Source: Amoebophrya sp. A120
Lineage: Eukaryota; Protista; Dinoflagellata
Reading direction: 5' to 3'
DNA: 64,000 nt
Assembly (NCBI GenBank): GCA_905178155.1
Contig: CAJINV010000007.1
Location: forward strand, 3,738,265-3,802,264
This document shows positions 3,001-63,500 of the stretch, piece after piece. Both the position numbers and the translations under genes were made by a program. The notes under the pieces are model-generated. The model had not been told where the DNA came from and did not search any database. It saw only the letters and a program-made list of their open reading frames with translations. The first letter of the stretch is position 1, and the number at the start of each line of letters is the position of its first letter.

Positions 3001-6000
3001 AAGAGGGACAACGCATCTGCAGTCTACTCTGCTATTTGTCATGCAAAATTCACTAAAGATTCACCACGCCTCATGCTAACGCGTGTTAAAGCTCTAACCG
3101 ATGGCGGCGGTGGAGATGACGATGACGACGACAGTATCATTTGTAAAAACGTCCCCACCCCAGAGTTGTAATGCAAATCTGCATGCTGAAAATGTTTCTC
3201 ATGCGGAGACCCATGAGAAGCAGTCTCTAGTCGTGTTGTGGGATTTGTGATGCTAGAATCAGCATGATATGCTAGAACTGTGATGCTGCTGAACAAGCTA
3301 AACAGGATTACACTGCGAGGCCAAACTTGTCATGCGCAACAGCAAAAGCTGACAGATTTGTTTAGCAGATTTCCCAGCTTGACTCTGGTGTGGGGACGTT
3401 TTTACTCAGGATAGACAGCGATTCCGATGGCTCGAAGAATTCTTTCCCTGGAGACGACGATCTTCATGGGTCGGAAGACGAGGGGTCTGTTTATTCCGAC
3501 GACAATGAGGACAGAAATAACGATCGTACGAGTAAAAGCAGCCGGTCCAAGGCGTCGAAGTCCAGCTCAAAGGTCAGCTCCAGTGAGGAGCGCAGCGGCA
3601 GCTCTGCGAGTGGTCTAAGTGCCCAGAAGAGCAGTGATCCGCTTTTCCAAGAACAAGATGATAATCCGATATTAGAAGAAGAACAGCCGTCGGGGCGGGC
3701 CGGTGATCTTCCCAGTGGCGGCTTGTTTGCTGACAAAAATGTTGCTGAGATGTTAACATTTAGCGAGAACAAAGCGGATTGGGTACAAGAGCAAAAAGCG
3801 CGAGTGAAGGCAGAGAAAGAAAAGCAGGCGGCGCTCTTAGAGGAACGGCGAGCACGTGCGGCAAGACAAGCGGCAAAGGCGAAGAAGATTCTGCAAAAAG
3901 CGGTTTCCACGCCGGACGATTTAGTCACGTTTCTACGGGGGCAGCATTTCACAAGGAATCTGCTTCTGCTGTTGGAGGATGAAAGAGCAGCTGTAGGTAG
4001 GAGCAAAAACTACGGGGACGGTGAAGATGAAAGCAATAAAACACCGCAAGAGGAGGAGGACCCAAGCTGTTCTAGCAACGCGGAGCAGGAAATAAGCAAA
4101 AAATCCAAGAGCATTTTTTGTCCGCGCGGCGTCCGTCTGACCCCCGTACCACCAGGAGAATTTGTCAACACCAAAGCGGTGGACCATCAAAAATTGTCCT
4201 CCTCGACGAGATCACGACTAGACGAGGGAAGTACTGGAATTCCGCCAACGCGCTTGGCCGCAACCGCCGCGGCGCCCTACTGGGATTGTGTTTTCAACCC
4301 GGCGAAATACTTGAAGCCCTTGGAGTGTGAACTTCCCAGTGGGATCAAGGCGGATTTAATTACTCCGCTGACGTTATCCTGCGCCGTGCCGAATACGGGA
4401 GGCGAAGGGTTCAGCAACTTGTTGAACTGGTATAAAGTAGACGCATTGATGTTTATTTGCACCGCTTATCCTGTATGGTAGTTTGTATACATTGCAGAAT
4501 ACAGTACAGATCCGACGTAAATGTGCGACGTGCTGCCATGTTTGTAGTTTGCCTGGCCAGCTGCACGAGTATTCCATATTCGATGACGGATTGTTTACTT
4601 CCCGCTGAATCTTCCTATCCCTATCCGAAATAAACAAGCCGCAGAAGATCATCAACTTTTCCCTTCTCATGATCCCAGGTACATCTATGTGGGGCCTGAA
4701 ACATTAGCCCTTGCGACGTCGAAGCACGCGGGCGAGCAGACAGGGTTTGGCGCGGCCACCAGCGAACAGGGCGTTGCTCAACTTTCCAGTATCACCCAGT
4801 CAATTGTCCGTCCGGGCAAGGAGCTGCAGGAGCGCATCAAAAACCACGAGAAATTGCTGGAAGAGTCCCAGCCCACCACCGAGATCTGTCCGGCGCACTG
4901 GGGGAAGCGCTCCATCGCGTTTCGCTGTCTCGAGTGCGAGTACGACAACAACTGCATTATTTGCCCCGACTGCTTTTTCGACTCAAACCACGTGGGTCAC
5001 CGCACCATGCTGATCCGCACGCAGGGGGGCGCGTGCGACTGCGGCGACGCGGGCAGCTGGGATCCGAAGGGCTTCTGCTCCAAGCACGGCAGGAAAAAGA
5101 ACGACGACGCTTTTCTGTGTTTGGAAGTAGAAGAAGACGAAAGAGCTGCAGATACCACGGCAGGAACCGGGGCGGGGACAATGAATATTGCCATGGGTGG
5201 TAGTACTAGTACTTCTACAACGATGAAGTTGCTCGGGACGCAGACCGCGAAGCACCTGCGCGAGAAAACCTCCGAGAACCTCTTCGGTTTCCCAGACAAG
5301 GCGACGAAAGTACGCGCGGAGCAAGTGATTGACTATGTCGTGAAGCTCTACTCTTACATTGTGGAGCTGGGGGAGGAGCTGGAGCTGCTCCGCAAGGTGC
5401 TCTGCCAGGTCCGGGACAGCTTCGAGTGGCACTTCTATGAGCGCGCGCACCGGTACTGCCGCAAGGCGGTCCAGAAGATTGTGGGTGACAAGGGGTTGGC
5501 AGCGGGGGACGGGACGAATGATTTGCAAAATGGAGGCACAGTGGGTTCGGGGGACAACTCTAGTAGAGCTATGCCGAAGAGTTCATTCGATCTGAACGAG
5601 GCCCTGGATCAGATGATGCAGGGCGGGAACTGGGAGTGGGACCCCCAAGTATCCGGTGCAAAAGTAATATCATGCTTGTTATTCGTCCGATTGCAATAAA
5701 CATTCTCGCATAAGAACGGCGAGGAAGGGGGAATTGGTTTTGCACAGTTCCTACTGTTTGACAAAACAGAAACCGTTTGCGATGCTGGCTGATGCGCTAA
5801 AAATGCAAAAATGCTTTTGCAGTGCATACCAAGGTGACCTTGATCCAACTGGATCAGGCAATATGGGTGTGCGGCAGATTGTGCAGCAAGCAGTGGTATG
5901 CATTGCAAACGTATCCGAAGTAGCTCAACATTGTTCCAAATTGCATGATGACAACATCAAGCTCAACAAGTCTTGGCACCTCCAGGAGATGGAGGGGCAA

Positions 6001-9000
6001 ATAAAAGTGCAATTTGTAGTACAACAACGAACACTGCGATACAACTTTTGCACAGGATGACGGGCGCAGAACATGGTGAGCGCTGCGGCTCGCATGGGAT
6101 TAGCAATGGCCCCCGGCGGCGGAGCGGGAGTTCTTCCCGGAACTGCAAACAACACAACCGGGACTCAAACCGCAGCGAACACCACGAATACTACCACCGG
6201 AGGTCGCCCGCCAAGAATGCCAGGAACTACTGCAGCTTCCGGAGCAGGTGCAGGCGCGTCCTCTTCAAACGCACATCAAAATAACGCCCCTGCGTCGAGT
6301 ACAAACAAGCAGGCGAAGGAGGACCGGCACGCGAAGGAGGAGAGAAATGTCATGGAAAAAATGAGCACTTTGAAACACGTCGGCCGGTGCAGCGACCTGA
6401 AAATCAAAACCGCCGACGCGATGTTGTCCCGTGCAGAGGAGCTGATTTCGGGGCTGGAGGCAAACATGGAAAGTTACCGGCCGATTTGCTATTTGAGTGG
6501 GGCGGTTACATCAGCCACTAGTGAAGGAGATCAATATTTTGACCTCGATAATGAGCAAGTAGGAGGAGTAGCACCAAGGAAAACATCGGGAGCAAATGAG
6601 GTAGTTGCGCATGATCTTCAGCAACCGCAAGAACAGGAGTACGTGGAGGACAAGGAGATTTTGATCAACGACTTCGGCGTACTCGCCCTCTGGGAATCCT
6701 TTTACTACGAACAGGAGCGGCACATGCTGCAAATCCAGGAGGAAATCTCATCTTGGCTGCTGAAGCGCTGCCGCATCGCGTACGGGTTTCGTTTCATCCT
6801 CACGCAGAAGTTGACCGCGGCCTTTAACGTCGGGGAATACAGAAAAAACTCGCTGCGGAAAATTGTGGGCGAGGAGCTCTTAGCTGCGATGAATTTAACG
6901 GCTTCGAACAAAGATGTGGAGAACGATGTGAAGGGCAGCGGCGCCGACGGCAATGTCGACATTAATGTTGTTGTTCCGAATTTACAAAACACGTTTCTAC
7001 TGGACGAGAAGTCGTTTTGTCGTGTGAACAAAAAGATCTCTTCCACCCAGTTCCGAAAGAAGATGACGAGTTACCAGAAGGAACAGGAGCAGAGGCAGAT
7101 GGATCAGGAGCACAAGGCAAACATGGATGCGCTGAATATCAAAGCAGGCACAGGTGGAGCCCCCAAATCGCCCTCGGTGCCGAAAGAACTGGAGTTGTGG
7201 GAAATGATCGACGCTAGAAACAGCTACGCAGGAACTGCTGCTGGTGGAGCTGCGAGAACATCAACTACAGCAAAAATGGGTAAAAAAACCAATGCAGCTT
7301 TGATGTCGGCTACTGCCGCAGGAAAGCAGCCGTTAGCACTCGCGCAGAACAACGGCGCTGCTGACAAGGTCTTGTCTCCTCACCACCGGAGACGGCACCA
7401 CCGCGAATTGCGATACTTGCTGCAAAGGGAGGAAGAGAAAAAGATCAACATCTACGGAACCATCCTGCAGTGCGTGTTTAAGTCGAAAAGCAATGGAAGC
7501 ATCAGGAGCTCCCAGAAGCAGAACAAGAAGCGCAGCAATACAGTTAAGGACAGTGGTAAAAATTCGTCCTCGCTACTACTAGCCACAGAGGACCCAACAG
7601 ACTCCGAGGACTCAGACGAGGATCTGCTGCACACTGCAGACCTAGACGACGAGGAGCAAACTGTGAGCGTGAAAATCCCGCGGGTTTTTGCTGAGAGTAA
7701 AGCTGCGAGCCGAGGACATCATTCTATCTTCAGCAAGTCCAACATCCAAGCCCTGCAGACCATTGGTGGCCTGGAGAAAGAGTCGCCCTGGCAACACCTC
7801 GCGAGGTGGATGTTGGGCCGGGAAGTGGGAATTTTCAAGAAGGGCAGCGCGATCGTGGAGCAGGGCGTTTTTGAGGTGGAGCGCATGTTTCAGACGGCGG
7901 ACCCCTACGGCTGGCTCTCCGCGACCATTCTGCCTTCGAGATCGAGTTTTCCCTTCTCCGCGAATGCCTTCGCGGTGCCAGGGACAAGCTTCACCAGCTA
8001 CACTATGATTCAGGCGGTACAGTTGCTTGTCGAGGTTTTGTACTCTGTGTTTCGTTCTGTTGCTGGTTAAATCAGATATGCAGTTTCGCTTGCCATACTG
8101 TCAACCGTTGTAGTTGTTCGCTGTGTAATTTAGTAGCCCCATGTGCTCAAGAACATCCTTATCATTCTGAGCAAGAAAAGCATCTGCGTCATGGTTGTAG
8201 GCGAGTGCTTGGTACTATGTATATGTTTTTTGATACTTAAAATCTTAGGCTTATCAGGAGCGGATACCGCAAACTTGAGTTGTTGTGATCTTCTTTCATC
8301 TTGAATGAACTCCATCCCAGATCTGCCAAGGCAGCCTGGACAAGTGGCAAGACGCGTTCGCGCTGTTGCCGCACGTGAAGGAAATGAAACGAGCGAACTA
8401 CACGGCCAAGACGAAACTGAAGGAGATCTGTCCGGGCGTCACCACAGAAACGCTGCGGTCCAGCAGCACTTCGCTGTACGACCTCTTCATGCTTTTGGTG
8501 CAAACGAACGCCGGGTTCAAGCTCGAGTTCACGAAGGTTTTCGTGAATCTCCTCGACGAGACTATGAACGTGGCACAGTTGCTGGAGGACGGCTACGAGA
8601 ACACCCAGAAATCCCTTCTGTTTGAGAAAATCCAGAATGCGCAGGGGTTCATCATGAAAAAGGTCGCGAACTTGACGAGCTTGATGGTGAAAAACCACAA
8701 AAACGGCTTGGACCGCAACGCGATCGAGATTGCCAACATATCCGAGGAAATAAAACACCCATCTTCCCCAACATCCATTTTGTCATGTAAAACATGCAAG
8801 AAAAAGAAATCCAGCGTCTGTCTCTGTCACGCAAAAAATGGAGGATGTTGGGGACGGGTGTAGTTTTTTCAATGTGATGCGATGCCTTGAAACTTCCGTC
8901 CGTCGAGGAACAACTGACCGAGTACCGGGCGCAGCGGTTCATGCTGACGTCCATTTTGACCATGAATCGGGAGCATTGGGAGCCGGTGCAGATGAAAGGG

Positions 9001-12000
9001 GAAGAGATATCAAATGTAAAAGTGTCTGGGTCTGGAAGATTCCGGGATTTGTGATGCATATTTTGTATGATCCATGATTCATGTAATGCATGATCTAGCA
9101 TCACAGATTTTTAGAGGGCTTCCTGATGCCTATTCCGCATGAGAGATGCCCTCTCCCGTGATAGGATCACCGTGTCTGATCATTAGACCCCCTGTATACT
9201 TTTTAGCGCGCAACCGGCCACGCGCGTAGTTCTTCGAGCAAGTTTGTAAGACTAACCCATCAAGGCAATACTGGAACTCCACCTTGCTCGCGGGCTTGGA
9301 TGGTAAGGCAGGTCAGCCACACATCGCGCCCACTGGCTGTAGCCATGCGTAAGCAATCGATAGCGGTTTTGCAGGTGCAGCCGGGTGGTAGTTAGGAAGT
9401 GGGCCGCGTCTCCACCTAGGGGTATCGGCAGAGGCTAAATCTGTTCTAACGCCCAGGTATTGGCAGAGGCTAAATCTGTTCTAACGCCCACCCGCCAGGA
9501 GTTAAATGGTACTACTACTACTACTACTACGCGTAACACAAACAGGACCCCTGTTGCTGGTCACGCAATACAGATTTTTTTTGGGATCCACAGACAGCAT
9601 GACAAGTTGCAACTTTGGAGACCCAGACAATGTTGCAATCCATAAGAGATGTACATGAACCAAGTCCAGCACTTGTCCGTCCAGTTGTTAACTATCGCGG
9701 AGGTGGTGCTGCAGATGGAGCCGAAAAACCGCAATTCGCAAACGCCCTACTGCGTCATCCGCGTGTTGACGCAGCTGTTTTTCCTGACCAAAGCCATGAC
9801 GGAGGCCAGCTGGAAGCACTTCGGCAAAAAGCGCAAAGCCTTCACCGACGCCAAGTCGAGCAGCGCGGGCTACTACAGCAACGTCGATGAAGAAGCCTCT
9901 CTGTCCAAGCAGGAGTTCACGGAGATGCTGATGCGGGCGAGGCTGGCGGACTACTTGGAAGCGGACCTGTCCTATGTGTTATACCACAAACAGTTTTCCG
10001 AAACGTTTGTCTGCGACGTGCAGAAGCAGGAGGAGCGGAAGTTTCTGTTCCGGATTTTATCCTCCCACTGGCAGGCGAATTTACAGCTGCGGCACTTCGA
10101 GTCCCACGTGGCTTATGAGATCCGGATGGCAGAGTGGCAGAACTGGCGCGGGCGGGAGCTGAATTTAACGCGGGCCACGAAAACACTATGTGACTACGCG
10201 CGGAATTGCTACGATTTGCGGAAAACACAATACTGGTACAAGGGTCTGGTGGAGTGTTTGGAGAACGAAGTGGTTGCTTACCAGTCCTGTTGCACCGTCG
10301 GAAAGGACTATGAGACCTACGGTGAAACATATGTCAGGCATACGCAACGGGACCGGGTGACGAAGACGAAAATGTTCTTTAACACGGCGCCCGACGCGGC
10401 GGATTCAGGTACATCATCCAAGAAAAACCGCAACAATTTATCCCGCTGTGAAAAAAATGCATCGCATTCGTTTGCTATTGGAAACAGTCTAGGCATTTAA
10501 TTTGTTTCTACAAAATTTGAAATTTTTAGCATGCAACCATCAAAAGCACAACATGCAACCTGCGAAAGTTTTGCTGCAGTCATGCATGATTGCTGCAACC
10601 CTCATGCACCGTGGCATTTATTGCAGGTAGTACTTGCATTCAACATGTTGAGTAAAGAGAACCTTCTCTCTGGGAAGTTGGGACTCGTCGAGTGCGATTC
10701 GCTTTTGCGCAGCATACAACAACCTGGACGGAACATCAAGCACTGCGAAAAACAATACGTCCTCGAGCAACAAGCCCAACCCGCAGTACACGAATTGCGG
10801 TTCGTTTCACATTCTGCTGCAAAGAATTTTGATCACGTCCATCAATTTCGACTTGATCGCACTGGTTTCCTCCTTCGACTCGTCCCTTCCTGCGAACGGG
10901 GTGAAGAGGGAAAAACATGCGAAAAACAAAAAATACCTGTTCGAGATGGAAGAATTGCTGCTGAACATTTTCCCGGAGCACGTGGTTATTCTGATGCTCC
11001 GGAACGCATCGCTGGTGTTAGCGTTTTCCCGGGCGATCTCTAACTCGTTGTGGATTCGGAACGGCATGGTTATCAACCGCAAAAGTGTCTGGGTCTGAAA
11101 GGATCGGAACTTGTGATGCGTGTTTCGGATCCTACAGAGATCTGTGATGCATAACGTGCAAAAGGTGCCCACTTCTGGCCATGCTGAGACGGCATTTCTC
11201 ATGCAGAATACGCATCACCAAGGAGCTACAGAACCTGTGATGCTAGGCCCTGCATTCCAGCAGTGGGGGAGCTCGGCAAAACTGCATGACAAATCTCGGA
11301 ATCTCCCAGACCCAGACATTTTTGCATTTGATAATGGTGATGCAGGAACAAAACGAGGCGTATCTGGAGGATGGACGGAAGCTATGGCGTTCTCGTCAAC
11401 TGTTACATTCTCAACTGTTGCATGAATTTGCCATGCAAGAATGGCAAAAGTTAAAGGGATGACCTTGCGCGTCTTGCATGACAGATTCCGCCCAGATTCT
11501 CAGTCTGTTTGGCTCTTCGAGAAATTGTCATGCGAAGCAGCTTGAGCGTGTCAATTCTGATTGTGATTTTGCATGACAAATCGTGTAACAGTTGAGAATG
11601 TAACATTTGAGAACGCCATAGAAGCAGGAGGACGTTTTGACTTTGCAGTTCTGCGCCATGATGCTCACCCTTCATCGACGGAAGCGGGAGCGGGAATCGT
11701 GGTTGAGAAGGGGAAGATTTTTGGACTTTGTGAAAAACGAGCAAAAATCTTCTGGTCGAAAGGAGAAAGCGGTGGTGGAGGTGATGATGGGTCGGGAGGT
11801 CGAAGGCGCGCCGGCCGAAGAAAGACAACATGACGATGAACAACATTTCAACACGTCAGCTGGCGTTGGGAGCAGTAGGCCGACAAACACTGTCGACATC
11901 CCGATCCTCGACCTGACAACGACCACCCTCCAAACCGATAATTTACTGAACACCAGCACGACGAACACGGGGACTATTTTTGCGGGAGCTGCAAACAACT

Positions 12001-15000
12001 TAGTACCTGGTGATCCGAATTACAGCAAGGGGGCCTCCTTCTTCCCGGAGGAGTCACCTTTCTCCACCGCACGGGAATCCGAACAGCAACTCTCCAGCTC
12101 TTTCGAAACCGCGGACTCGAAATTGCCCTCGGCGAGTTCCGCCGTCAGTTCGGCCAACGAGGAAGATGAACTACAGGTGAAAAATCCCTCCGGAAGTAGT
12201 GGTGACAGTATGAAGTTCTCCGAGGCCGACGATGGCGGGTACGACTTGAAAAAGAGAAAACTCGACCAAGAAGCGCTGCAGAACCTGAACCTTAATCAGG
12301 GTGCAGCCGCAAGCTCCAGCATCTCTTTCGCGACCAGTGGTGCCGGATTTTACAACAACGAGGACCAGAGCAAAAATAACGTAACAGGGGCGATGGATCA
12401 GTACCAGATCCTGCATGGCCAACCGTCTTCTAGAATGAACAAATACAACTACGACTTCATGGTGCACACAGCTTCGGATTTGCATCAAATGTCGATGGAG
12501 CTGGGCCATGAGAAGAACGACTTCCTCGAAGTACTGCTAAGGACAGCTGGCGAAGCCAGCAGTTCATCGAACAATACCGGTCTTGTTCACGCGATTGCAT
12601 CACAGAAAGACCGGGATGCAATTCTTGATGAGTTGCGAAAGCCGGCGGCGCACGAGAACCGTGATCAGCACGTTCCTTCTTGCTCCGTCGACACCTCTTT
12701 CGAACCGGACTTTGCACTGCGGCTAGCCGAATCCCTTTTCCTGGTCCAATATCTGCCGAACCCCCTGATTTACAACGATTTCGACGGAACGACTTCGCCC
12801 GGCTCGGTTTTGGATCGAAATTTCTACGCGCGCTGCCTGCTGTACGGGTCAGACGTGATTAAGAAGATTAAACAGGAAAAACCCCAAACGCGGAACAATC
12901 CCTGCGAAGTGGTGAACAAGTTTGTCTCCCGGATTTTGGACGACTACTACTTGGTGCAGGAGATCGTTCACGACGCACCCACCAGCAGTCAGAGACAGGC
13001 CGAAGCCGCGTCCTTCCAGTGCCGGCTGGATTCCGCCATGCCCGTGGATGTGGAGCTCAGGAGAGAATTTGAAAGAAGTTACGGCACCGAGGATGAGAGA
13101 CAAAACAAGGACAACATCGAGTGCAACTTGCTGGAATCGCCGACCTACTTGATCAATCAAGCGGCCTACGTGGCGTCCAGCGAAGTGAATGTGCCCATCC
13201 TGTTGAAGCACCAGCAAAACATCTTTGACGTTTACCACCAAGACTTGCAGGCGAAGATGTTGAAGGAGCATAAGGCTGCTGCGCAAGGAGTAGATGTAGA
13301 TCTTAGAGCAGCAAGTGGAAAGAACAAGCGTGCTGGTGTTCGTGGATCTGCATCTACAACTTCGGCCAACATTTTTCCTTCGAACAAACAGGCCCGCGTG
13401 TGGCCGAGCTGCAAGGACGGTGCGAGATTGCACCAAGCGCTAGATCCGGAGCTGCAAGCGGTGAAGATCACCAACGCCGAAGTATTGCGGTTTCTGCTGG
13501 AGGAAATCGCGTTGAACCTCCTGAATGTTGCCTCCAAACACGATTTTTGGACGTCCGCGTTTCTGAAATCGCAGACCACAAGCAGTACCAGCTCCAGCAT
13601 GGTGGGGACGCAGACATCCGGGTACCCATTGGAGACGTTTTACCACCTGTTGTCCGTCACGCTCGCTGATCCGGATTGTATCTTGCAGGAGCAGTTGATG
13701 GCCCAGCGGGAGAACTCCCGGGGGGAAAACGCCGACCTGTTCAACGGGGGAAATGGGGAGTACGCGAGTGTATCAAATGCAAAAATGCCTGGGTCTGGAA
13801 GATTTCTAGATTTGTCATGCATATTTTCCATGACCCATGATGTCTGTGATGCATGCCGCAGCATCACAGATTTTTAGAGCGCTTTGCGATACCTCTACCG
13901 CATGAGAAACGCCCTCTCCGCGTAGCGCAAACTGGAGTCCTCTTGCTGGTCATGCAATGCAAATTTTTTCAGAATCCAGAGACAGCATTACAAGTTTAGA
14001 ATGTTCCAGACACAGACACTTTTGCATTTGATAGAGTGGGTTCGGAAACAACAATGAAACCGCTGCGTCCAGTCCGGCAGATGGTGTCGCGGCTTCCAGC
14101 CCGGTTGACAAATTAGAAACGGAGAAAGAGCTGGTGGAAATCTGGAACGTTTTACCGGCGGACTTTTTTGCTGGAGAAAGAAAAGGAGAGCAGGGGATGA
14201 GCAGTGACAGTGAAGACGATCGTGCTGCTTCTATGCAGGATAAAAGGCATAATTCTGCCTCTTCGTTCAACAATATTCTCGACGAGGAGGAGCAAGATGA
14301 AGATCACGAGCAAGCAATCTTACTCGCGATAAACACCAGCTCCATCACTCGTGCCTCGCAGCAGCGGCCGTCCGCCATGTCGGCAGCGTCTAATTCCGCG
14401 AACCGAATCCAGCTCAACCAGTCGCAGTGCGTTGCCCGCGAAACCAGGATGGCTTTCTGCTTGAAGCGCCAGCTCGTGCAGATCCTGGCCGGGGGGAGAT
14501 TTTCGCGTTCGGAACTCGAGGCCATTGTGCAGACGCAGTATCCAGACAGGATTTGGCAAAAAGTGTTGCCGGAAATTTCGGATTCCGTTTGGTCCTTCGA
14601 CACAAAACAGCTGAAATCTACCGCCCGAGGGGGCGGCGCGGTGACCACGGCAAGCTCGCCGCAGAATGAAGACGAAGAGGTGGCGAATAAGGACGAGAAG
14701 AAATTGTACTACATGCTGAAGAAATCTTCAGGTGCCGCAGGTTCTGGTGGATCATCTGGCGACGCAAAGAACATAAACAGTTCCAGTATAGAAGTCAAAC
14801 CCGCCGTATCCACAGAAAAAAACCCATCCACATCCATTTTTTGCATGACAAACACAGGACTTGGTACGTGTTTTGCATCACAAATTGGATGTGGATGGGT
14901 TTGTTTCTGTGGATACGCCGACCTCTACGACGCCGCTTACAACCAGTTTTTGATCCCGAAGCAGAAGCGCACGGAAAACTTGGTGGAACGTGCGACCGAA

Positions 15001-51579: not shown

Positions 51580-54500
51580 ATGAGTCGCGAAGCGTGGGGT
51601 GTGGTGATATCCTCGGGCCTAGAAGCCGTCGCGGCCCAGGATGCAATTACCGCTCGCATCGCCGCTGCGATCGAAGTGCGCGACCGTCTGATTGCAGGTG
51701 GCGCGACTCCGCAGCTACTGGGCGTGTTTTTCGAGAGGCTGGAGCCGGCAGTGTGGCTGGGTTTGCAAGCTAACATTTTCAACAGTCTCCTTGGTCGGGA
51801 TGTGGGAGATGGTTCTCCAGCGTCCTCTGAGGCTGAGTCACCGGACGGGAAGGATGCTTCACCGAACAAAAGGCAAACACAGAATATTGAAGGAGACCAA
51901 TTGAACCGGACCGCACACCCATTCCTTTCCCCAGCCAACGTAACTGTGAATTGGACACCGCAGAAACGTGACCTGGTCGTTTGGCTGGGCGGTCCTTTGT
52001 TGCTTACAGAAAGTGAGGCGCTCCGCGCGAGAGCTAAGCTTCCGGTGACCGAGGAAGCTTTTTTGCAAGGATCCGTTTTTGAATTGGTATTGGTGTCGCA
52101 TTCAGATAACGGGGGTGGCACGCATTGGCTGAAAGTGGAGCACGTCGACAAACCCCTTGCGGATATGATAGGCGAAGACCTGCACCTGCAGCTCTCGCCG
52201 CAGAAGACAGAGGCATCCGCGGCTGCTCGTGGTTCAGGTTCGACCATGGCTGGAACGACCTCCACAGTGGGACTTTCTGTTTCGTCAGCAGCCTCTGTAA
52301 GTGGAAATAAGAACAATAAACCGTCTCACAGAAGCAAACGGTTTTTCTTAATCCCACCAACTTTTATCGAATCGCATCCCTTCGAAATCTGGCGCGGTAG
52401 GGAGCTGCTCTGCAGTTTAGGTGACTTAATTGCTATCGATTACGACCAGAAGAATAAGGCACAGGAAACACGTAAATACGCTGCGCGTTCGTCCATTGCC
52501 TCTTCGTCGCGGAACGCCGTGGCGGAGGAAACATTGACTGGCGTCACGGCTGCTAGCCGCGCTGGGAGTTTCACAAGTCCGCGACAGCCCGCGCGCGGCG
52601 GTGCTGTTGCGGCTGCTGTAGCTTCTTCCCGGAAGCAAGATGGCGACAGTGCGTGCCGTGGTACTAGTGATGACGTCGGCAAACGCTCATCCGCGGTGAT
52701 TCACGAAACTGAGTACTCGTCGTTCCCCCATCAAAAGCTTACTGAAACACGCTCAGCGCTCGACCTTGAAGCTGCACATAAAAATCCAACGAGTGCTGAA
52801 ATGGTTCGCTTGCTGCAAAGTGAACTCGACCGACGGCCGCAACTAACGGCGGGATCGTCTGCAGCTAGAACCTCGGCACTTCATGCGGTACCGAATAAGC
52901 GTCAAGCTACCTCCGGCAAGTCCTCCTCGATCAAAAAAACTAGGCAAAAGCAGCTTCTTGTGTTTCTACAAGACAACCAGGACCAGCCCACGATGGACAA
53001 AAAGGCGGCGTCCTCTTGGAGCATCACCCGCGTCTCATCGCTACCAGAAATGCAACTGTGGTTAGGTGAGGAACCAGACGACTTCAGCCTCTTCGTGATA
53101 TTTGTTTCCGGAGCCGCGAAATTTTTGCACGAGGAGTTGCAGATGCTGACGCTGCGCCGCACAGCCGCTGGCGCTGGTGATAAAGATTCCGACAGCAGCA
53201 CTTGGAGCTTTATTGCATCTAAACTCTTCTTACGAGCGGAAGAGAGCAAGAAGAAAAAGGAGTGCCAGCAACAGGCTGAAAAAGGGCTCAGTGAGTTGCT
53301 GACATGCGGCTTCGACGCGGTTGCGCGAAGTGGGGGGAGTGTGTTGGTGGTGAACGATAGAGAAATTATTGCTAGGTCTGAGAAAACAAAACCCGCGTTT
53401 GGAACTGCGCGTTCACAACTCGGTCGGGCGGAAGAAATCCTGCTGTCTGAGTTTGATAACCTTATCCTGTGCAAAAGTATCGCTATCGTATTCGTATTGC
53501 AGTCATGCAATACAAATCTTTTTCTTAAGGTGAATCAGCATTACAAATGTGATTTCTCATGCTGAGAAATTTGTAATGCATTCATACGAGTACGATAGGA
53601 TACTTTTGCAATTCATAAACCTGTCGCACAAGCAATTGAACAAATGCGCGAGCGCTTCGGGTTGTGGAAACAAGGCCAAGCAGACCAAGAAGAAGAAAAA
53701 GAAAAACGATTCCTGCGCAGAAGCAGCTGTGAAGAGTTCTACTACTACGCGAAAGACGTCCCGAGAGCATGATTTTGATTTGCTCATGCCTATGCCCGAA
53801 CAAGGAGAAACTCACAGCCAGACAAGTGCTTACGTCGCGCGTGTTCATGTGTACTTCTCTTGTGAAGTGCCTGCATCCGCGGAGTCAGAGCAGCCACAAC
53901 AAGCACCAGCAGCGGGCTCAGCGGCAACGACTGAAAAATCCAGCTCGTTCACACCGAATCCAGACGTTCATTCTGAGATGGGAGTTAATGTTGTTGCTGC
54001 GGCCAAGACCCCAGGAAAAGTAAAGAACGCACTGCAGCACTGCGCACAAGAAAGGTGGTTGGCGCCTGCGTTCCCGCAAAAGGACCCAGGTTACACTGAA
54101 AAGAGCCAGAATGTGAGCGCCTGTCTTCAGAACGCAAGTAACAGTGAGTCACAGGACCAGGCAGCCGTTTCTGCTGATGGATGTTCGGGTTTGGTGGAGA
54201 CCGTTGGTACAGCAGGTTTACCTCGTGCAGTTTCTGCAGTTGATACAGCACCGGGTAGTCTCTCCGTCGATGCTCGGGCTGGTTTTGAAGAACCGGAGCA
54301 ACTCGAAGGACAGTACGACGGTGCAGCCAGAGGCGACACTGCGCCAACGGGTGCAGCTGGCCGAAGGAAATGCTCGGCGAGCGACGACGAGACGCATCAC
54401 GATGAAAATCCATTCCGCCCTGCAGAACTACGCGGCGAGAAACACGCTCCCCGACAAGTACACGTCGGAAGTAGCGAGAAAATGTGTGCGAAAAAAAGTC

Positions 54501-57500
54501 CGCCATTGTGTACAGGAGAACAAAATGCAGAGCCTAGAGGAAAGATGAAGATCATGTCCGTAGTGACAACAACGACCTCAAGTGGCAGCACGAAAACAAC
54601 CGCTTCTCCACTGTCGCCACGCAGCCTGCTGGAAAGCTGTAGTGGCACGACGGCTTCCTCGTCTGATCGTGATCACGATCGAGAAAGTGTTGACGCCTCG
54701 CTGCAACTCTCTAAAAGTAGAGGTGAAGCATCGTCCTCGTCCTCATCCTGCGTTACTACTCCCAATGAAAATGATTGCGCCGGCTCTTCGCGGCTTCCAA
54801 GCACGTTGGAGAGTGTGATGTCCTCACCGTGTGAGACTACAGGTGGAACCACGAGCGACACAAGGGTATCTGAAGCCGATGAACACACCAGTTGTACGTC
54901 TTCAGACCATGGCGCCCCGGCCCCGACTGGTGCTGCTGGCAAACCTAAAAAAGCGGTACGAGTACAAGCAGCGAACAAGAAAGCCACGGGTATAAAGCAG
55001 ATAGTCGCAGTCGAAGTTGTTTCGTCTCCGCGTCCCAGCGGTGCTGCACCTGCGACCAGTTCAAGTGAGTCCAGCTGCAAGAAGGCACAGCATATTGAGT
55101 CCCTCCGAACAAGCAGTGGACTTTCTGCCGATCGAGCCACAAGTGACAGCAAAGTCGAGACAAAGATGAAGCTAGGTGTTGCCGAGGATCCGGCGGCTTC
55201 GTCGTTACTGACCCCCGCTCGACGACCAGCTCCTGCACAGGCGTGCAGCTCCCATTCAGAAAATTCTACCGCGAACAAGCTCTCTAGTGCGAAACAGAAA
55301 CGACTCGAGCTGCTCCGACGATTCCAGGAGGAGCCGGCAGACGGAAATTTGACAAAATTTGCGGACCCAAGCTACAAGCCACCTGCTGTGTCGGAGGCGT
55401 CGCTTCCTACAGAGCCCAAAGCCAAAGTCACAGACACGAACATAACTAGGCCCTCGAAGGAAAAGGATGGCCCGGATGTCGGTGCAAACAGTTCGTCGCG
55501 GTTGATAGCAACTGCGCCTACGCCCCAGGAACGGCAGCGGAAGGAACCGGAACCGCCGAGCTCCTCGGGCCAGGTTACGACTTTAAATATCCCCAAAGAA
55601 CATTCACTTTTGTATGCTGCCGCTTTGGTGCGAATCTTGGATGAGAAAGACAACCGTTGCGGAATCCTTGCTGTCCTGTGCCAAGACGAGCTACTGCAAA
55701 AAGTGAAGGCTATAGTCGATCCACTTGGGAAGCAGAAGCTTGGACGCGTTTTGATCCGCGTGATCGAACAGTGGCCCGACACTTTTCGTGTGGTCGATCC
55801 GGCCGGAAACAAATTCTGTGTCCGGTTGAGAAAGCATTCCGAACCCGAAGTCGACTGGTGGCGCAGAAAAGTTGACTTCGCTGCAACATTTAAGAAAGCA
55901 AGAGAAAGAACTGAAAACACGCCGGAACGAAACTCGGCGAAAAATGAGAAGGACCGGTCGAAGAGTTTGAAGACAATTACCGAGCCGCCGCTGCCACACC
56001 CGACCAATGAGCCGCAGGAAAAACGAAGTTTCCCCGGCCCCCCTTCCGTTTGTCCGCCGCCACCACCTCCACCACCACCCCTTTGCGTTCCCGTCGAGGT
56101 CCAGACTTTCTCTAGCGAAGCAAAAGAATTCTCTTCGAGAGGAGCAAAATTTCATGCTCTCGGAACTTGCAAGCCATGCGCGCACCTGCCTCGGTGCGTC
56201 AACGGGCGTGACTGTGATTTCTGCCACGACTGCTCCCCAAGTGAATTCAAGCGGCGTCTGTTGCAAAACAAGAAAAACAAGCAGAAAGAAGGCGGCACCA
56301 ACAAGGCGAACCAACAGAAAGATGAGCATCATCAAGACCGCCAGTTCTACAATTCGCAGGCCGATGCGACCTATGCCGCGACATCGTCAGCGCTAAGCTC
56401 CCCAGCGACACCACCTCCGCCACCTCCCTACAACTTCATGCACCACGAATACGGACACGGTATCGACCCCGCCCCACTGAAACAGCCCCCACTCGTGTCC
56501 AACACGGCACTGAAAACGAAAAATGATGCATCGAAATCCAACACTCTCACCGATACCACCGCATCCAAAAAGCACCACTGGAAGTACGACGCCATCGTGA
56601 TGGCGAAAGAGGCAAAACAGGTGGCGCCGAACCTGCAGTGGCGACAAGGCGTCGTCGAGTGGGCCACCAGCCCGACCGACCCGAGCAGATCCTTCGGCGG
56701 CATTCTGTTGAACGACGCGGGCGGCTTCGGTGGGTCGGTGCAAGCGCAAACCGGCGGCGCAACGGTGTGTCACTTCGAGAAGAACAGCGTTGCCGGCACC
56801 TTTCGCCTGCCGCCCGCCGCGGGCGACGCGGTGCGCGTGATTCCAAGAAGGAGCGGCAACTACGAAACGAAGGAGCGGAAAGATGTTTGGACTGGGGAGG
56901 AGAAGGTGTCGTACGCACGTTCAAAAGCGAAGAAGACCGAGGTGATCGCTTGGAAGTGGGGGAAAGACCTGGGAAAGGAGGAAAAATTTCGGGGGTTTTC
57001 GCATCTGTTATTAGAGATGCGGGCGTTCGAGGAATGGAGGCCGTTGCTGGAGGAACTATTGGAGGAGGTCAACGAGGCGAGTGGTGGATTCGAACACGAT
57101 ACTAGGTGGACGAGGGTGAAGGAAGATATGGCTTCTAAACTCCTGCTCGAAGAAGAAAGTGTTGAGGGCGCTATGGAGTCAGAGTTCTTAAAAGGCCACC
57201 GACCAGGCGGTCACCGAATAAAAACAAAAATCGGACAACAGAGCAAGCACGCGTCGCTGCCTGTTGCTGCAGGACCGGCTGCAAAGAAGAAAGCTGACGA
57301 GCAGAAGCCAAGATCGAATGCTGTTTCGCTTCCCTGGATTTCTGACGAGTCCTCGGAAGAAGACAGAAGACATCGTGGTCGACAAGACCGCACGCGGATA
57401 GAGAAGCGGAGTAAGCAGATGAGGGCGACAGGTGAACAAGGACAGCAAAGCGAAAAACTGTCTTCAGCAACAACTTCTTGGAGGCGTCGATTGGTCGATG

Positions 57501-60500
57501 ATTCCGACCGTTCACCTGGAACGGACGACGAGGAGGAAGCCCCACATGATCAAGGCAGCGATGATGATTTTTGGCTTACGTCCTCCTCCGACGAAGAGAT
57601 AAATCCTTCTGGAGGTGGTGTCTCATCCCTACCCGCGACCACCAACACAGAAGGTTTCCCGCTGCGCAAAAACCTCTCCCCACTCCAGGTCAAACGCCGG
57701 CGGGCCGTGGCGGAGTCGCACGAGGCGTTTTGGGTGCTGTGTGTGCGGGAAATTTTGTTGCACGTTTTGCCGGAGTGTGGCCAGCTGTTGGAAGAGTGGA
57801 AGCCGTTCCCGAAATCTGCGTTGCCAATTACACCTTGGGAGACGACCAACACGTCCGCGACAGTTGCACCGTTCGGGGCCTCGGCAAGTAACTCTTCCAA
57901 TAGTCACGGGAACTATCACAAACCAGCTCCATGGAGCAAAAAGGACAGGTCTCCTTCGCGAGCTGACTTCGCTCGTCGCGCCTTGTTCTTCCTGCGGGTA
58001 TTGCACCTCTTCACCGTGATCGAGCAACAGTTGCACACAGGGCCACTGCAGGTTTTTCTAGGAGCAATCGGGAGTCTTTCTGAGAAGCATGCGGCGCAGT
58101 CGTATGGAGCTGGCGATGAAGTTCTTTTCGGGAGGAATGCGTCCTCGTGTCCCACTTCGACCAGCACCTCGCCCTTGCTATTATTCTGCAGCTTTTTCTT
58201 TTGTGGTTTGCTTCGCTCGTGCAGCGACGAGGGGAGCACGACTTCTGGCGCAGACGACAACTCGTCACTGCTAAGCGCGAAACGGAAACTGCAGCAATAT
58301 GCACCGAAGGTTCTCTTTGACTGCACGAATCATATCGCAGAGAACGCTGCGAAATTTGTTGACATTTGCGGGGCTTCAGTCATTCCGTTTTTGACGACGG
58401 CGCAGGCAGTCGCGGCAAATCTGGTGAGGAGCCACATGCTGCTGCAGAAGGGCCACCAGCTGAATATCACAAATTCCGCATTTTGCATTCACGGTAGTTC
58501 GGGGGCTGGAAGAACGACGCAGAGGAGGTCCGGCTGGTCGTCCTCTTCTTCTTCACGCGGGCCCAAAAGCGGAATATCTTCAGCACCGAACAAATTACAT
58601 CACAACAAGGCTGCACGCGACAGCGAAGATGCCCCTGTTTGCACAAAATACTTGCACGAAGACGTGGCGCACGTGGCCGCAAAGAGTAGATACAGCCTCC
58701 ATAGTACACCAAGTTGCGGAAACATGCCTTTTGCATCAGCAGGCACAGGATATCACGAAAACGTTGTTCACACTAGTACCGCAGTGCCAACATCACAATT
58801 CCTTGTCGGCGAGGGCGAACAAGTTTTCTTCTTCCTGCAATTATTGCAGGACATCGCTCACACGAACCACGGAAAGCTCACCACCGAGCTCGCCATACTC
58901 TTGTCCCAGCGCGATCGGAACAAGGACGCAAAGCTGGACTTTCTGAACCTACAAGACGTGCCGTGGCGCGAGTTGCCGGATCGGCCGACGGTAAGCGAAC
59001 TGCGCGACCCGAGCAACGTCGAAGCCCCCTTGCCGAAAATCAGCTTCGACAAGCCCTACAGGTCCTTTGAGGAGTACATGGAGACGCAAGTCCGCCTTTT
59101 TCGCGAGGACGGCATCAGTAAGGTCCGCCTGACCATGAGCAAATACATCAAGGACAAGCGCATCGTGTTTCGCGAAATGGGCATGTACCACTCCGTGCTG
59201 GTCGGTATGCACACGGATCTGAACAAAGGAGGCACCGCCCACAGCAAATCCGCCGTCAGTCTGGTGTTCAAATCGCTGAAGCCCTTGGGGTATGAATTGC
59301 AAAAGTATCGTACTCGTATATAATGCATTACAAATTTCCTGCTCAGCATGAGAAATAGAATTTGTAATGCGGATTTACCTTAAGAAAAAGTCATGCAAGA
59401 CTTGCATTTATACGAGTACGATACTTCTGCACAGGATATGGGGAAAGACAAGGAGGCGGAGAACATCGCGAAGCTGTGGGGGAAGGAGGAGTTGCGGTAC
59501 GGAAACATGGTGTATTTGTCCTTGAAGGGCACCTTCGCGGAGAGCTGCATTCTGTTCGGGACGATCACGTGGTCGGATCTGCTGGACCAAACGGGGCTGT
59601 TCATGTTGGAAGTTGCCGGGCAGGCCAGTTACGACGGCTCGCTGACCGAAGACGCCAGCCTGTTTGAGGTGATCACGAAACTCTTGGCCACAAACACGTT
59701 GGTCGTGGCGGAGCAGCTGACCTATTACCCGGCCTACGGGCCGGTCTTGAAGGTTCTGCGGGAGAACTTTGGTAGCGCGCGCGACTTGGCGTTTTACGAA
59801 GAGCTTGTGTTCGGGAAATTCCAGAACAAAGCATTGAGAATTTTTAACGGTGCTACTTCTTGCGCAGCCGCAAGTACCAGTGCAACTCCCGCCCCGTGGG
59901 ACGGCGCAACGAGCGCAACCCGGATGCCTCGAGCGGCGCGGCGAAGGTTTTTCTATCTAGATGAAGGAAAAGACCGGATCAAACTGCCCGCGCGGCTGGT
60001 GTTTGGCCCGGAAGCGGGGGAGGTTTGTGTGACCGTGGCTGACTGCTGCAACCAGATCGAATACAACGAGCCTGGTTTTTTTAGACAAGGAAAATCAAGG
60101 AAGTTCATCAAAAATCGAACACCCCCCGGCCCGGGGCTCCCGGGAAATATAGATGATGTGTGTGGGCCCCAACCATTTCGCACTTCCCCCCTGCGGAGCC
60201 CGCCCGGCCATGCGCTGCCGCTGGCATGTGTGTCGTTTTTAGTTCTCACGCCTGCGCATGTACGAGCCGAAGCGACCCCAGCATTGGCTCTGCAGCCCTG
60301 CTCCGGTTCAAAAGTAGGCGCCTATGAAAGAACAGCCCGAAGGCGTTCGAAGGTGGCGCGCGTTTAAAATCGGCGCTATTGTGCCGAAAGCGTTCCGGGG
60401 TCCCATTTTTTGTCCTGTCGCAGCGCAGAACGCTCCCACTTTGTCACCTGAATCTGTTGCGCAACTCGAAGAATGTAGAGCAGCGACATTACGTCCACCA

Positions 60501-63500
60501 GCAGAACCACCCAGAGCCGCAGGAGCAAACGGGCAGCCGCCCAGTCCGTGTCCCCGCCTCGGCCCGGTTGCCGGCAGCGCCGGGCCACATGCGCTCCCGA
60601 AGGCGCTGCCCCCCTGTCGGAGTTCGCCGGTAAGGCCGGCCACGATACCAGTTGCGCGGGCCGGCGCGATGCGTTTTGCGCATGCGGCCTCCGTCCGGTA
60701 GCCGAAGACACTCCGAACGCCTCGCCCCTGTTCTGCAAAGTTTTTGGCAGATGCAAAAGCGCGCGGCCTTGTGCCCGCATTGGCTGCGAAGACGAGGCGG
60801 CCCACCGTTCTTTCTTCCAAAAGCCCGCGGCCGTGGGTGTCTTAGGACGTGCTTGCCCTGGGAATATAGCGGGCATGGGGGCAATAAAACAAAGAAGGCG
60901 AGAAGGGAAAACCGGGAGGAGCTCCTGTCCGAAGGCGAAGCCGGGGGGCCCCTCAGGGGGGTGCTCTAGGGGGGTGCTTTTTTGGGCGCGGAATTCTCCA
61001 GTTTTAGCTGGGGGAAAGGCTTCCCAAGGGGGGTGCTTTTTGGGGGTGCTTTTTTTTGCGAAAAAGGGGGCCCCTTTGGCTGCCCGGCCGGGGCCCCCGG
61101 CGGCCGCGGAAGCAGCCCTTTTCGCTTTTGGCCAAAGAGAACGCCGGCGGCCCCGGAGCCACGCCGGGGCGCGCCAGGCTGCTCCCTTCGGACCGGCCGC
61201 CGCCCCGGCCGCCAGGCAACGCTTCCGGTCGCAGCGAAGGCGGGCTCAGGGCCGCGCGCTCTTGCATCTGCCAGAAGCCTTCCAGAACTGGGGCGAGACG
61301 TTCGGGGGGCCTCCTGCCATCGGACGGAGGCCACACATGCAAAACGCACCGCATCGGGCCACGCCACTGGTATCGCGGTCGCCCCTACCGGCGATTTCCG
61401 ACAGGGCCGCGGCGCTTTTGGTGACGCTTTTGCCCGGCGCTTCCGAAAGCCGGGCCGGGGCGGGGAAAGAAACGGGCTGGGCGGCTGTTGGTTTGTTCCT
61501 GGCGCTTTGGGTGGTTCTGCTGGTGAATGTGGCGGCGTTGCTCTACATTATTCGGGTTGCGCGAGCGATTCAGGTGGAAAACTGTAAGGGCTCCGCGCTG
61601 CGACAGGACAAGAAATGGGGGCCGGCAACGTTTTCGGAAAAATGCGACTCATCGTAAACGCGCACCACCTTCGAACCCCTTGCACTTGTTTTCCCATAGA
61701 TGCGCGCCTTTGATTCGGAGCAGGGCTGCAGAGCCAATGCTGGGGTCGCTTCGGCTCGTACATGCGCAGGCGTGAGAACTAAAAACGACACACATGCCAG
61801 CGGCAGCGCATGGCGGGGCGGGCTCCGCAGGGGGGAAGTGCGAAATGGTTGGGGCCCACACACATCAACTATATTCCCCGGGAGCCCCGGGCCGGGGGGT
61901 GTTCGATTTTTGATGAACTTCCTTGATTTTCCTTGTCTAATTTTTTTTCGCAGGGCTACAACGTGTCATCATCTTCTGGTTGGACCGCGAGATCTTGGGG
62001 AAGTCGGGACGTGCCAGGACCTGTTGGAGAGGGCAGCCCGAAGCCGAACCACGGAAGCACTGCAAGCATATCCAACTTCGGGACTCGCGTAGCTGCAAAT
62101 CGCAACGTCACGACGGCTGAGGCTTCACCGGCCAGCATCGATCTTCGTGACGAAACCTCCACCCCGTTGGATCGATTTCAGAAACGGGCGATCCACCACA
62201 TGCTGACGAATCGCCTGGCGATCATCCAAGGCGCCCCCGGAACCGGGAAATCCTTCACGTGCCGGCGCATAATCCGCATTCTGCATTCGTTGCAAGGGGT
62301 CGAGAACTGCAACACCAACCCGGGCAGGTGGCGGTTCGTGCCGACGCAGGACCGGCTTGAAGCTGGTGTTGGTGAGGACCTCGGGAATATTAAAATACAG
62401 ACGACAAAAGAAGAGCAAGGTTCCCTTTCGAAGATATCCGACCTTCAGAGCTGCCAGCAACTCCGTTTTCTAGTTGTCACCTACAAAAATCTGGCACTGG
62501 ACGAAACGCTGAGCGGATTGCTTTCCACCTTCCCGGATAACCTGGTCCGCATCGGGAACTCCAGCAGCCCGGCGGAGACGCCGGAGCTGTCCGCGCGGCG
62601 GCTGTTTAACCTGAAGAAGCAGAAGAAGTATGGACTGAGCTGGAAGATGCGGAAGGAGTACAAGCAGCTTTTGTTGAGGGCGAGAAAGCTGCAGCTCCGT
62701 TTGGAGGACGAAATCCGCCGGTTTCAGGTCGTGCGGTTCTTCTCCCCGACGATGTTCTTGCTGCAGTGCACCTACGAGCAACTGTGCAACCTGCTATTGT
62801 TGAAATGGGAAGAGCAACGCCCGTTCATGGTCGAGGCAGTGAAAAGCCGAACCGCTTTGCTCGGTATGCTTGGTCACGTGTCAGACTTCCTCGCGAAAAG
62901 AGAACAGTTGGGCGCAGCCGCGGGAGCAGTTGCGGGGCAGGCAGTAGATGAACAAGTATCTAGAGCAAGTAGCTCTTCTTTGCCTTTCTCTTATACCCCA
63001 CCCCCGCGTCGGCTGGTTGCGGAATTCTTCGCGAACCCGGGGCGGCTGCCACTCGACTACCAGGAGACGTGTGCGGTTCTAGGCAACCTAACGACCGAGG
63101 CTCTCAACGAGTGGGCCCCAGACGTCGAGGAATTTCGAAATTTTTCGAGAAGCCTGCGCGAGGCGAAGATCGATCTGTACAGCACCAGTGAGGAGATTAT
63201 TGACTGGAAGGATGGCAGAATCCAGGACTCGCTGCGCGACCAAACCGAGGACCAAGCAGCCGCAGAGCGGCTGGGAGAGAAGGAGGCGTTCCTGAAATCC
63301 CTCGCGGTGCAGGAGAACGAGGAGGTGTTGGACTACAAGGAAAGGCTGCGAGAGGAAACAGAAAATTTGTACGGGCGTGCGAGGGCGAGTCACGAATCGC
63401 AATTGAAGAAGCTTGACGAGATCGTTTTTTTCGACAAAGAAGCCGAGGTTTCCGCGCGGAACCACGTCAAGGAGCAGGCGAAGGAGCTGGGCAGGAAGGC

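What the first reader, a model, noticed from the sequence alone, without database searches (positions are those of the whole stretch)
3130..61945. Transposon-like introns defined by TIR plus 5-bp TSD, with no GT-AG register
Seen: 13 insertions in three genes have a perfect 5-bp TSD and TAT...ATA (12) or TTA...TAA (1) ends. Removing the element plus one TSD restores frame and conserved motifs. Sliding the junction through the TSD never gives GT-AG, GC-AG or AT-AC. Known (from recall, unverified here): inverted-repeat non-canonical introners are reported in Amoebophrya with the excision mechanism unresolved. Inference: a precise removal system distinct from canonical splice-site recognition, coexisting with 8 GT-AG introns in this window.
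Basis: partly seen in the sequence, partly recalled or inferred. Interest (0 to 1): 0.85.

Follow-up and report, generated by a model that had tools for sequence, protein, structure and literature searches.

The report
Known hairpin introners of Amoebophrya
These are the already published hairpin-ended mobile introns of the marine parasite Amoebophrya sp. A120: contigs of a probable RNA run lack exactly the element plus one copy of its 5-base duplication at three junctions, and the hairpin likely sets the cut in place of the usual GT-AG signals, by a machine that is still unknown.

Summary
I find 14 insertions, not 13 (13 TAT…ATA, 1 TTA…TAA), with a perfect 5-bp duplication and inverted ends; 20 shuffles gave none. 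Five more look decayed. Removing element plus 5 nt opens long reading frames in three genes. No equivalent cut reads GT-AG, GC-AG or AT-AC, but random target sites would give that 19% of the time.

Contigs of a probable RNA run lack element plus one duplication at three junctions. Two database proteins, 100% identical and labelled Amoebophrya sp. A120, use four such junctions. An orthologue is colinear across a fifth.

This is therefore the genome and the element class that Farhat et al. 2021 described (TAT-N7-AAA inverted repeats, 3–5-nt direct repeats, mechanism open). The scan has noted similar introns on other protist DNA (unchecked notes).

Added here: families sit in both orientations; elements with decayed duplications offer a way to fix the cut position; a shared internal motif. 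Two elements could instead be spliced GT-AG with one extra codon. The catalyst is untested: a modified spliceosome (about 50%) or a separate cut-and-ligate system (about 35%).

The parts
1..28584 (+). Gene 1, UBR-type (N-recognin) E3 ligase, open at the window start; my model is 7,858 codons after removing 18 pieces
   Evidence: Pfam zf-UBR and PRT6_C; model, with three GT-AG introns chosen by me; only 20902-28581 is covered by database protein P0002
2145..3097 (.). Candidate decayed TTA…TAA insertion, flanked by a roughly 40-bp duplication; ends not pinned
   Evidence: frame only; canonical alternatives exist
3135..3413 (.). Element, 279 bp, duplication GACAG; an in-frame GT-AG reading (3134-3414) also exists
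5650..5828 (.). Element, 179 bp, duplication CCAAG; weakest inverted repeat; in-frame GT-AG 6 nt away
5897..6059 (.). Decayed element of the 154-bp family, flanks 3 of 5 alike, ends in ATG; in-frame GT-AG 6 nt away
8739..8879 (.). Decayed element, flanks 2 of 5 alike; nearest in-frame GC-AG 30 nt and GT-AG 75 nt away
9008..9644 (.). Element of the 263-bp family with a nested insertion of about 355 bp, duplication AGAGA
10436..10716 (.). Element whose duplication CAACA is offset by 3 nt from the TAT at 10439
11071..11333 (.). Element of the 263-bp family, opposite orientation to 9008, 13771 and 22880; duplication ATGGT
11383..11620 (.). Element of the 238-bp family, duplication GAAGC; 44-nt micro-exon between it and the previous element
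13771..14033 (.). Element of the 263-bp family, duplication GAGTG; an in-frame GT-AG reading (13770-14034) also exists
14807..14915 (.). Element, 109 bp, duplication CGCCG; retention would keep the frame open (38 extra codons)
19195..19345 (.). Element of the 154-bp family, one mismatch between the two duplication copies (ACTAC/AATAC); informative for the cut position
   Evidence: an X4 contig piece starts at 19348
22661..22814 (.). Element of the 154-bp family, duplication CCACC; absent with one copy from the X4 contig and from P0002
22880..23141 (.). Element of the 263-bp family, duplication CCACC; absent with one copy from the X4 contig and from P0002
25050..25203 (.). Element of the 154-bp family, duplication TACAA; absent with one copy from the X4 contig and from P0002; present in an X1 contig
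43395..46099 (+). Gene 2, trypsin-like peptidase (database protein P0003, 820 aa)
43548..43784 (.). Element of the 238-bp family, duplication CGACG; P0003 skips 242 nt here
51556..64000 (+). Gene 3, helicase with an AAA_11 domain, open at the window end
53463..53617 (.). Element of the 154-bp family, opposite orientation to 19195, 22661 and 59291; duplication AACCT
59291..59438 (.). Element of the 154-bp family, duplication TGGGG; orthologue P0001 aligns without a gap across the joined site
60081..61940 (.). GC-rich TTA…TAA foldback element, 1,860 bp, arms of about 710 nt 83% complementary, in a T run; no Pfam match in its two longest frames tested
   Evidence: frame evidence only

Best explanation
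These are Amoebophrya sp. A120 introner elements: short repeated insertions with inverted ends and a 5-bp duplication, likely non-autonomous DNA transposons, that are likely cut from the pre-mRNA together with one duplication copy at a position set by the predicted terminal hairpin rather than by GT-AG. Step 1 (anatomy shown, enzyme inferred): a transposase or integrase elsewhere in the genome inserts the element in either orientation with a 5-bp staggered cut. Step 2 (predicted): the two ends pair and bring the flanks together. Step 3 (product shown at three junctions in contigs of a probable RNA run): element plus 5 nt is removed, which restores the pre-insertion coding sequence, so insertion is nearly free of cost and the elements spread. 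Step 4 (untested): the catalyst is most likely a modified spliceosome without U1 that takes its sites from the stem (about 50%); a separate cut-and-ligate system is close behind (about 35%).
For: Identity: P0002 and P0003 are 100% identical to window frames and labelled Amoebophrya sp. A120. 11 of 13 TAT elements carry the published TAT-N7-AAA motif at one end or both. Removal: X4 contig 14 lacks 159, 267 and 159 nt at three elements with no other differing letters (the 60 letters between the first two are inferred from record coordinates). P0002 has the same three junctions and P0003 a fourth of 242 nt. Orthologue P0001 aligns gap-free over the 59291 junction. For these five, the nearest in-frame GT-AG is 18-49 nt away and the nearest GC-AG 11-50 nt. 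DNA keeps the elements: X1 contigs run through 5650 and 25050 without gaps. Hairpin rather than repeat: 22661 and 22880 share the duplication CCACC, and an in-frame jump from first to last copy (486 nt) is possible, yet contig and model keep the 60-nt micro-exon. Two families occur in both orientations within sense-strand genes. The first and last 20 nt form 10-19 expected pairs in 16 of 17 elements folded. Spliceosome inventory: all but 6 of 89 proteins and U2, U4, U5, U6 found in A120, U1 not found (PMC7789003).
Against: X4 is only guessed to be RNA, and the silent-stretch and canonical-intron controls were not obtained. The database models may rest on the same RNA data, so they are not independent. 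Nine of the 14 perfect elements have frame evidence only. Two of them (3135, 13771) have an in-frame GT-AG reading 5 nt away, and three more have one 6-9 nt away. The opposite-orientation copies (11071, 53463) are among those with frame evidence only. End pairing is a prediction that follows from how the elements were selected. Nothing here separates spliceosome from another catalyst; the spliceosome is needed for the GT-AG introns anyway. The one hint on cut position (19195) puts the 3' end inside the random duplication, which is hard for a standard spliceosome.
Confidence: 0.8

Rival explanations
1. Same elements, but a spliceosome-independent system removes them: a protein recognises the TAT-N7-AAA stem, cuts at a fixed distance inside each duplication copy and a ligase joins the exons, perhaps releasing circles as reported for euglenid nonconventional introns.
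For: No fixed dinucleotide at the cut; both orientations; the X4 piece starting at 19348 fits a cut after the second base of the duplication, leaving a random 3' end. Euglenid hairpin introns are reported to leave as circles (PMC11282704; PMC12501133).
Against: No such enzyme identified. The symmetrical ends offer the same T-rich 3' tract in both orientations, so orientation does not exclude the spliceosome. The review reports spliceosomal removal of TIR/TSD introns in Fritillaria. The 19195 hint rests on one contig whose left piece was not displayed.
Confidence: 0.35
2. The elements are excised from DNA (programmed or transposase-driven, one duplication copy left), and transcripts come from emptied templates.
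For: The product equals the pre-insertion sequence, as in precise DNA excision. X4 is not on record as RNA.
Against: X1 contigs hold the elements in place at flank-like depth. X4 depth rises towards the 3' end of gene 1, and contig 14 would end about 750 nt past the stop codon, as a transcript would (arithmetic). Contigs drop rare variants, so a minor emptied form is not excluded.
Confidence: 0.06
3. The joined form is a reverse-transcription slip across a hairpin between short direct repeats, and in the cell the elements are retained or spliced at nearby GT-AG sites.
For: Hairpin plus direct repeat is the known anatomy of such artefacts (PMC8240250). All transcript evidence here is probably cDNA. 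Five elements have an in-frame GT-AG within 5-9 nt.
Against: Retention stops the frame in 14 of 15, while the flanking frames stay open for thousands of codons and gene 3 is conserved with an orthologue. The joined form is the assembled, dominant form in X4. 11383 has no in-frame GT-AG within 60 nt. As a full explanation this fails; for 3135, 13771 and 14807 it remains open.
Confidence: 0.06

Closest known systems
Introner elements among the non-canonical introns of Amoebophrya sp. A120 (Farhat et al. 2021, PMC7789003)
   Same: Same organism label; 8-20-nt inverted repeats, 3-5-nt direct repeats over the boundaries, TAT-N7-AAA motif, repeated families, no internal transposase, coexistence with GT-AG introns; the legend of Fig. 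S19 names a 5-bp direct repeat.
   Different: Nothing in kind. Not seen in the text I read or searched: both orientations of a family, the shared internal motif, use of decayed duplications to fix the cut. The 1,860-bp TTA element exceeds the paper's 40-1000-bp intron window and starts like the motif given for strain A25.
A120 introner families of Gozashti et al. 2025 (PMC12130899)
   Same: 58 families listed for A120, among them TIR DNA types with mostly non-canonical sites; one TIR family has frames like Copia/Gypsy proteins, a candidate mobiliser type.
   Different: I did not match the window's families to theirs (2 of 118 table rows seen).
Euglenid nonconventional introns (PMC11282704, PMC12501133)
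   Same: Paired ends, boundary repeats, no GT-AG, coexistence with canonical introns, proposed MITE origin, unknown catalyst.
   Different: Their CAG/CTG end motif is absent here (0 of 13 have CAG at +4 to +6); circles are reported there and untested here; unrelated lineage.
Fritillaria borealis non-canonical introns (through the review PMC11282704; original not read)
   Same: TIR and TSD, recent, species-specific positions.
   Different: They keep preferred ends (AG-AC, AG-AT) and are reported as spliceosomal; here no end dinucleotide is fixed by the data.

Membership tests
Amoebophrya A120 introner elements | Lies in the A120 genome | tested here: met
   P0002 and P0003, labelled A120, match window frames at 100%
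Amoebophrya A120 introner elements | Inverted repeat joining the two intron ends | tested here: met
   14 elements against 0 in 20 shuffles; arms
Amoebophrya A120 introner elements | Direct repeat of 3-5 nt over the boundaries | tested here: met
   5-bp perfect repeat in 14 (selection criterion); decayed or offset in 5 more
Amoebophrya A120 introner elements | End motif TAT, seven variable bases, AAA | tested here: met
   11 of 13 TAT elements at one end or both; not the two of the 238-bp family, nor the TTA element
Amoebophrya A120 introner elements | Repeated in the genome | tested here: met
   families within the window at about 0.6-0.8 identity; X1 summed depth in most element bins 100 to 4,000 times that of exons, not a copy number
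Amoebophrya A120 introner elements | Non-canonical junction supported by RNA | tested here: inconclusive
   three junctions in X4, a run only guessed to be RNA; raw RNA runs X9 and X10 did not cover the gene
Non-autonomous TIR DNA transposon (MITE) | Terminal inverted repeats, fixed-length target duplication, no coding capacity | tested here: met
Non-autonomous TIR DNA transposon (MITE) | Autonomous partner with the same ends and a transposase | not testable with these tools
   no genome held; Farhat et al. found no transposase in A120
Canonical U2 or U12 spliceosomal intron | GT-AG, GC-AG or AT-AC ends | tested here: not met
   0 of 15 at equivalent cuts; near-miss GT-AG readings for 3135 and 13771
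Canonical U2 or U12 spliceosomal intron | Excision as a lariat | not testable with these tools
   no raw reads cover the locus
Euglenid nonconventional intron | CAG/CTG motif near the paired ends | tested here: not met
   0 of 13 with CAG at +4 to +6 (motif)
Euglenid nonconventional intron | Release as a full-length circle | not testable with these tools
   no raw reads cover the locus
Reverse-transcription artefact (falsitron) | Hairpin between short direct repeats | tested here: met
Reverse-transcription artefact (falsitron) | The unspliced form is the functional mRNA | tested here: not met
   retention stops the frame in 14 of 15
Reverse-transcription artefact (falsitron) | Absent from direct RNA sequencing | not testable with these tools
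   no such run listed

The most novel reading that the evidence does not exclude
Amoebophrya A120 runs a second, spliceosome-independent intron-removal system: a factor reads the TAT-N7-AAA stem, cuts at a fixed position inside the 5-bp duplication whatever its sequence and orientation, and ligates the exons, so that any such transposon insertion is erased from mRNA. Elements with mismatched duplication copies, such as 19195-19345, make the cut position readable from existing RNA data.
Probability: 0.35. Interest if true: 0.85.

Novelty: already known. Interest (0 to 1): 0.3.

Why it matters
The class itself is published, so the finding is not new. The open question is real: tens of thousands of introns in this parasite are removed without the splice-site code that nearly all eukaryotes use, and no catalyst is known (no later mechanistic paper surfaced in searches). 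A sequence-independent, traceless removal signal would explain how transposons can flood coding exons, and could serve as an engineering tool. This window adds a cheap handle: elements whose two duplication copies differ reveal which copy the mRNA keeps, and so where the cut falls.

Tried and rejected
No whole genome is held, so no search for an autonomous element, snRNAs or genome-wide statistics. No RNA holder was listed as such. Including X1 flooded the joint table with other element copies, so junctions were read from the contig-piece table, which shows only 16 of over 20,000 pieces. No read data were obtained for genes 2 and 3, nor a silent-stretch control. A search of 1.8 billion representatives with exon 11622-13766 gave 0 hits and a PDB search with exon 10718-11068 gave 0 hits, so the 5' two-thirds of gene 1 have no outside check. 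Rfam: 0 matches. Pfam: no family in two frames inside the TTA element. P0001 does not test the 53463 junction (outside the alignment) or the 60081 junction (poorly conserved stretch). A wide scan for other end types and duplication lengths 3-10 returned many weak pairs that I judged chance, without a shuffle control. Rejected: reading the absence of GT-AG registers as selection against them (19% by chance); reading 'element+5 restores frame in decayed elements' as proof of a measured cut, since insertion history alone preserves that length. No earlier notes exist for this genome.
Full report
Verdict. The window encodes proteins labelled Amoebophrya sp. A120 at 100% identity, and the insertions match the introner elements described from that genome by Farhat et al. 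2021. The removal mechanism remains open in the papers I could find.

What is there. Of 32 TAT…ATA or TTA…TAA pairs with a perfect 5-bp flanking repeat, 14 have clear inverted ends; none did in 20 shuffles. Thirteen are TAT…ATA elements of 109-637 bp and one is a 1,860-bp TTA…TAA foldback. All 14 sit in coding frames of three sense-strand genes: a UBR-type E3 ligase (10), a trypsin-like peptidase (1) and an AAA_11 helicase (3). Five more candidates in gene 1 have decayed or offset duplications. The short elements fall into families of about 154, 263 and 238 bp.

Frame and register. Removing element plus 5 nt gives 16.3 kb of open frame over eight elements in gene 1 and 3,422 stop-free codons in gene 3. 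A full gene 1 model of 7,858 codons needs three GT-AG introns and the five decayed elements, all chosen by me. Retention stops the frame in 14 of 15 elements tested; 14807-14915 is the exception. No equivalent cut reads GT-AG, GC-AG or AT-AC (0 of 15). With these ends and random targets that has a 19% chance for 14 elements, so it shows indifference to the code, not selection against it. Frame tests only length modulo 3. Elements 3135 and 13771 can also be read as GT-AG introns that add one codon, and 5650, 9008 and 11071 have an in-frame GT-AG within 6-9 nt; none of these five has transcript evidence here.

Evidence for exact removal. In run X4, guessed to be RNA, one 7,468-nt contig matches gene 1 from 21286 with no differing letters and lacks 159, 267 and 159 nt at three elements; the 60-nt micro-exon between the first two is inferred from record coordinates. 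Database protein P0002 has the same three junctions and P0003 a fourth; these models may rest on the same RNA data. Orthologue P0001 (37% identical over 1,929 columns) aligns without a gap across the 59291 junction. For these five junctions the nearest in-frame GT-AG is 18-49 nt away. Contigs of X1 carry the elements in place, two of them spanned whole. X4 behaves like a transcript set (depth rising to the 3' end; contig ending about 750 nt past the stop by arithmetic), but the silent-stretch control is missing. Raw RNA runs X9 and X10 did not cover the gene.

How it likely works. Insertion: inverted ends, a constant 5-bp duplication and many copies point to a non-autonomous DNA transposon. 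A 5-bp duplication is typical of retrovirus-like integrases (recalled, no call), and one A120 TIR family has frames like Copia/Gypsy proteins; Farhat et al. found no transposase in A120. Removal: the ends are predicted to pair (10-19 of 20 nt in 16 of 17 elements folded; the TTA element was left out). Three points favour the stem over the repeat or the dinucleotides as the guide. The duplications are of unrelated sequence. Two families occur in both orientations (11071 against 9008, 13771, 22880; 53463 against 19195, 22661, 59291), though the reversed copies have frame evidence only. Two neighbours share the duplication CCACC, yet the in-frame jump across both is not what contig and model show. 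At 19195 the two copies differ at their second base; an X4 piece starting at 19348 fits keeping the left copy there and excludes the nearby in-frame GC-AG at 19198-19341, but its left piece was not displayed and a 153-nt removal fits as well as 156. Catalyst: untested. I put a modified spliceosome without U1 at about 50% (inventory; Fritillaria precedent through the review) and a separate cut-and-ligate system at about 35% (euglenid precedent).

An internal motif. GCAT[GCT]A[CG]A occurs 45 times in 3,811 element bases and 10 times in the other 60,189, on both strands and across families. It is in 12 of 13 intact TAT elements and 0 of 4 decayed ones. I picked the motif from these same elements, so the enrichment is inflated. 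If it holds, loss with age would suggest a role in transposition rather than removal (inference). The string was not found in the main text of Farhat et al.; figures were not visible.

Papers seen. PMC7789003: abstract, passages, sections 10, 11, 12, 16, supplement part 2 of 5 and a supplement search; figures not held, and Figs. 3, S19-S25 may already show details I call unseen. PMC12130899: passages, section 6, supplement search (2 of 118 rows of one table; files 13 and 14 not searched). PMC11282704: passages and section 6. PMC12501133: passages and Discussion. PMC8240250: passages. Roy et al. 2023, Henriet et al. 2019 and Gumińska et al. 2021 were not read and are known only through the review. 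Searches showed no later paper on the A120 mechanism; the library lacks most subscription journals. Earlier scan notes report similar introns on other protist DNA; they are unchecked and did not set my reading.

Scores. Novelty: already known. Interest 0.3: a textbook-breaking phenomenon, but published from this genome; the window adds a practical test of cut position and small anatomical details. Most novel reading not excluded: a spliceosome-independent removal system, probability 0.35, interest 0.85.

Noticed in passing
window 60081-61940: The foldback element starts TTA plus two purines, the motif published for strain A25 rather than A120, is far longer and more GC-rich than the TAT elements, and exceeds the 1,000-bp limit of the 2021 intron analysis. 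Its removal rests on frame only.
   Followed up: partly
window 2104-3134: A roughly 950-bp TTA…TAA insertion is flanked by a duplication of about 40 bp (28 bp perfect) that encodes an acidic run; several in-frame removals are possible, some canonical.
   Followed up: partly
window 9191-9546: A second insertion of about 355 bp with different ends (CCTGT…ACAGG, 4-6-bp flanking repeat) is nested inside the 263-bp family element; no other copy in the window.
   Followed up: partly
window 43473-45835: A 15-bp perfect inverted repeat with a flanking AAGCT repeat brackets most of gene 2; both arms lie in the coding frame and AAGCT is nearly palindromic, so probably chance.
   Followed up: no
window 40150-40200: The ABC-transporter gene changes frame at its nucleotide-binding motif with no intron visible: assembly error, pseudogene or recoding, not resolved.
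   Followed up: partly
window 37403-42664: A pectinacetylesterase domain lies directly upstream of the ABC-transporter frames and may be fused to them through an intron near 38.6-38.8 kb.
   Followed up: no
window 22661, 22880, 53463: One equivalent cut of each reads CT-AC, that is GT-AG on the non-coding strand; unstranded aligners could file such elements as canonical. Chance registers may account for part of the 15% of A120 canonical introns reported with the same repeats (inference).
   Followed up: partly
window 29600-31000 and 35000-37060: GC-rich intergenic stretches, one with a 32-bp hairpin at 36795-36889; no similarity to the elements or to other parts of the window.
   Followed up: partly
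window 20902-28581: The database model P0002 begins at an internal methionine and covers only the last third of the open frame, which runs unbroken far upstream to the UBR box; the public annotation probably splits or truncates this gene.
   Followed up: partly
window 48781-50787: A class-III aminotransferase frame without any element or frame break.
   Followed up: no
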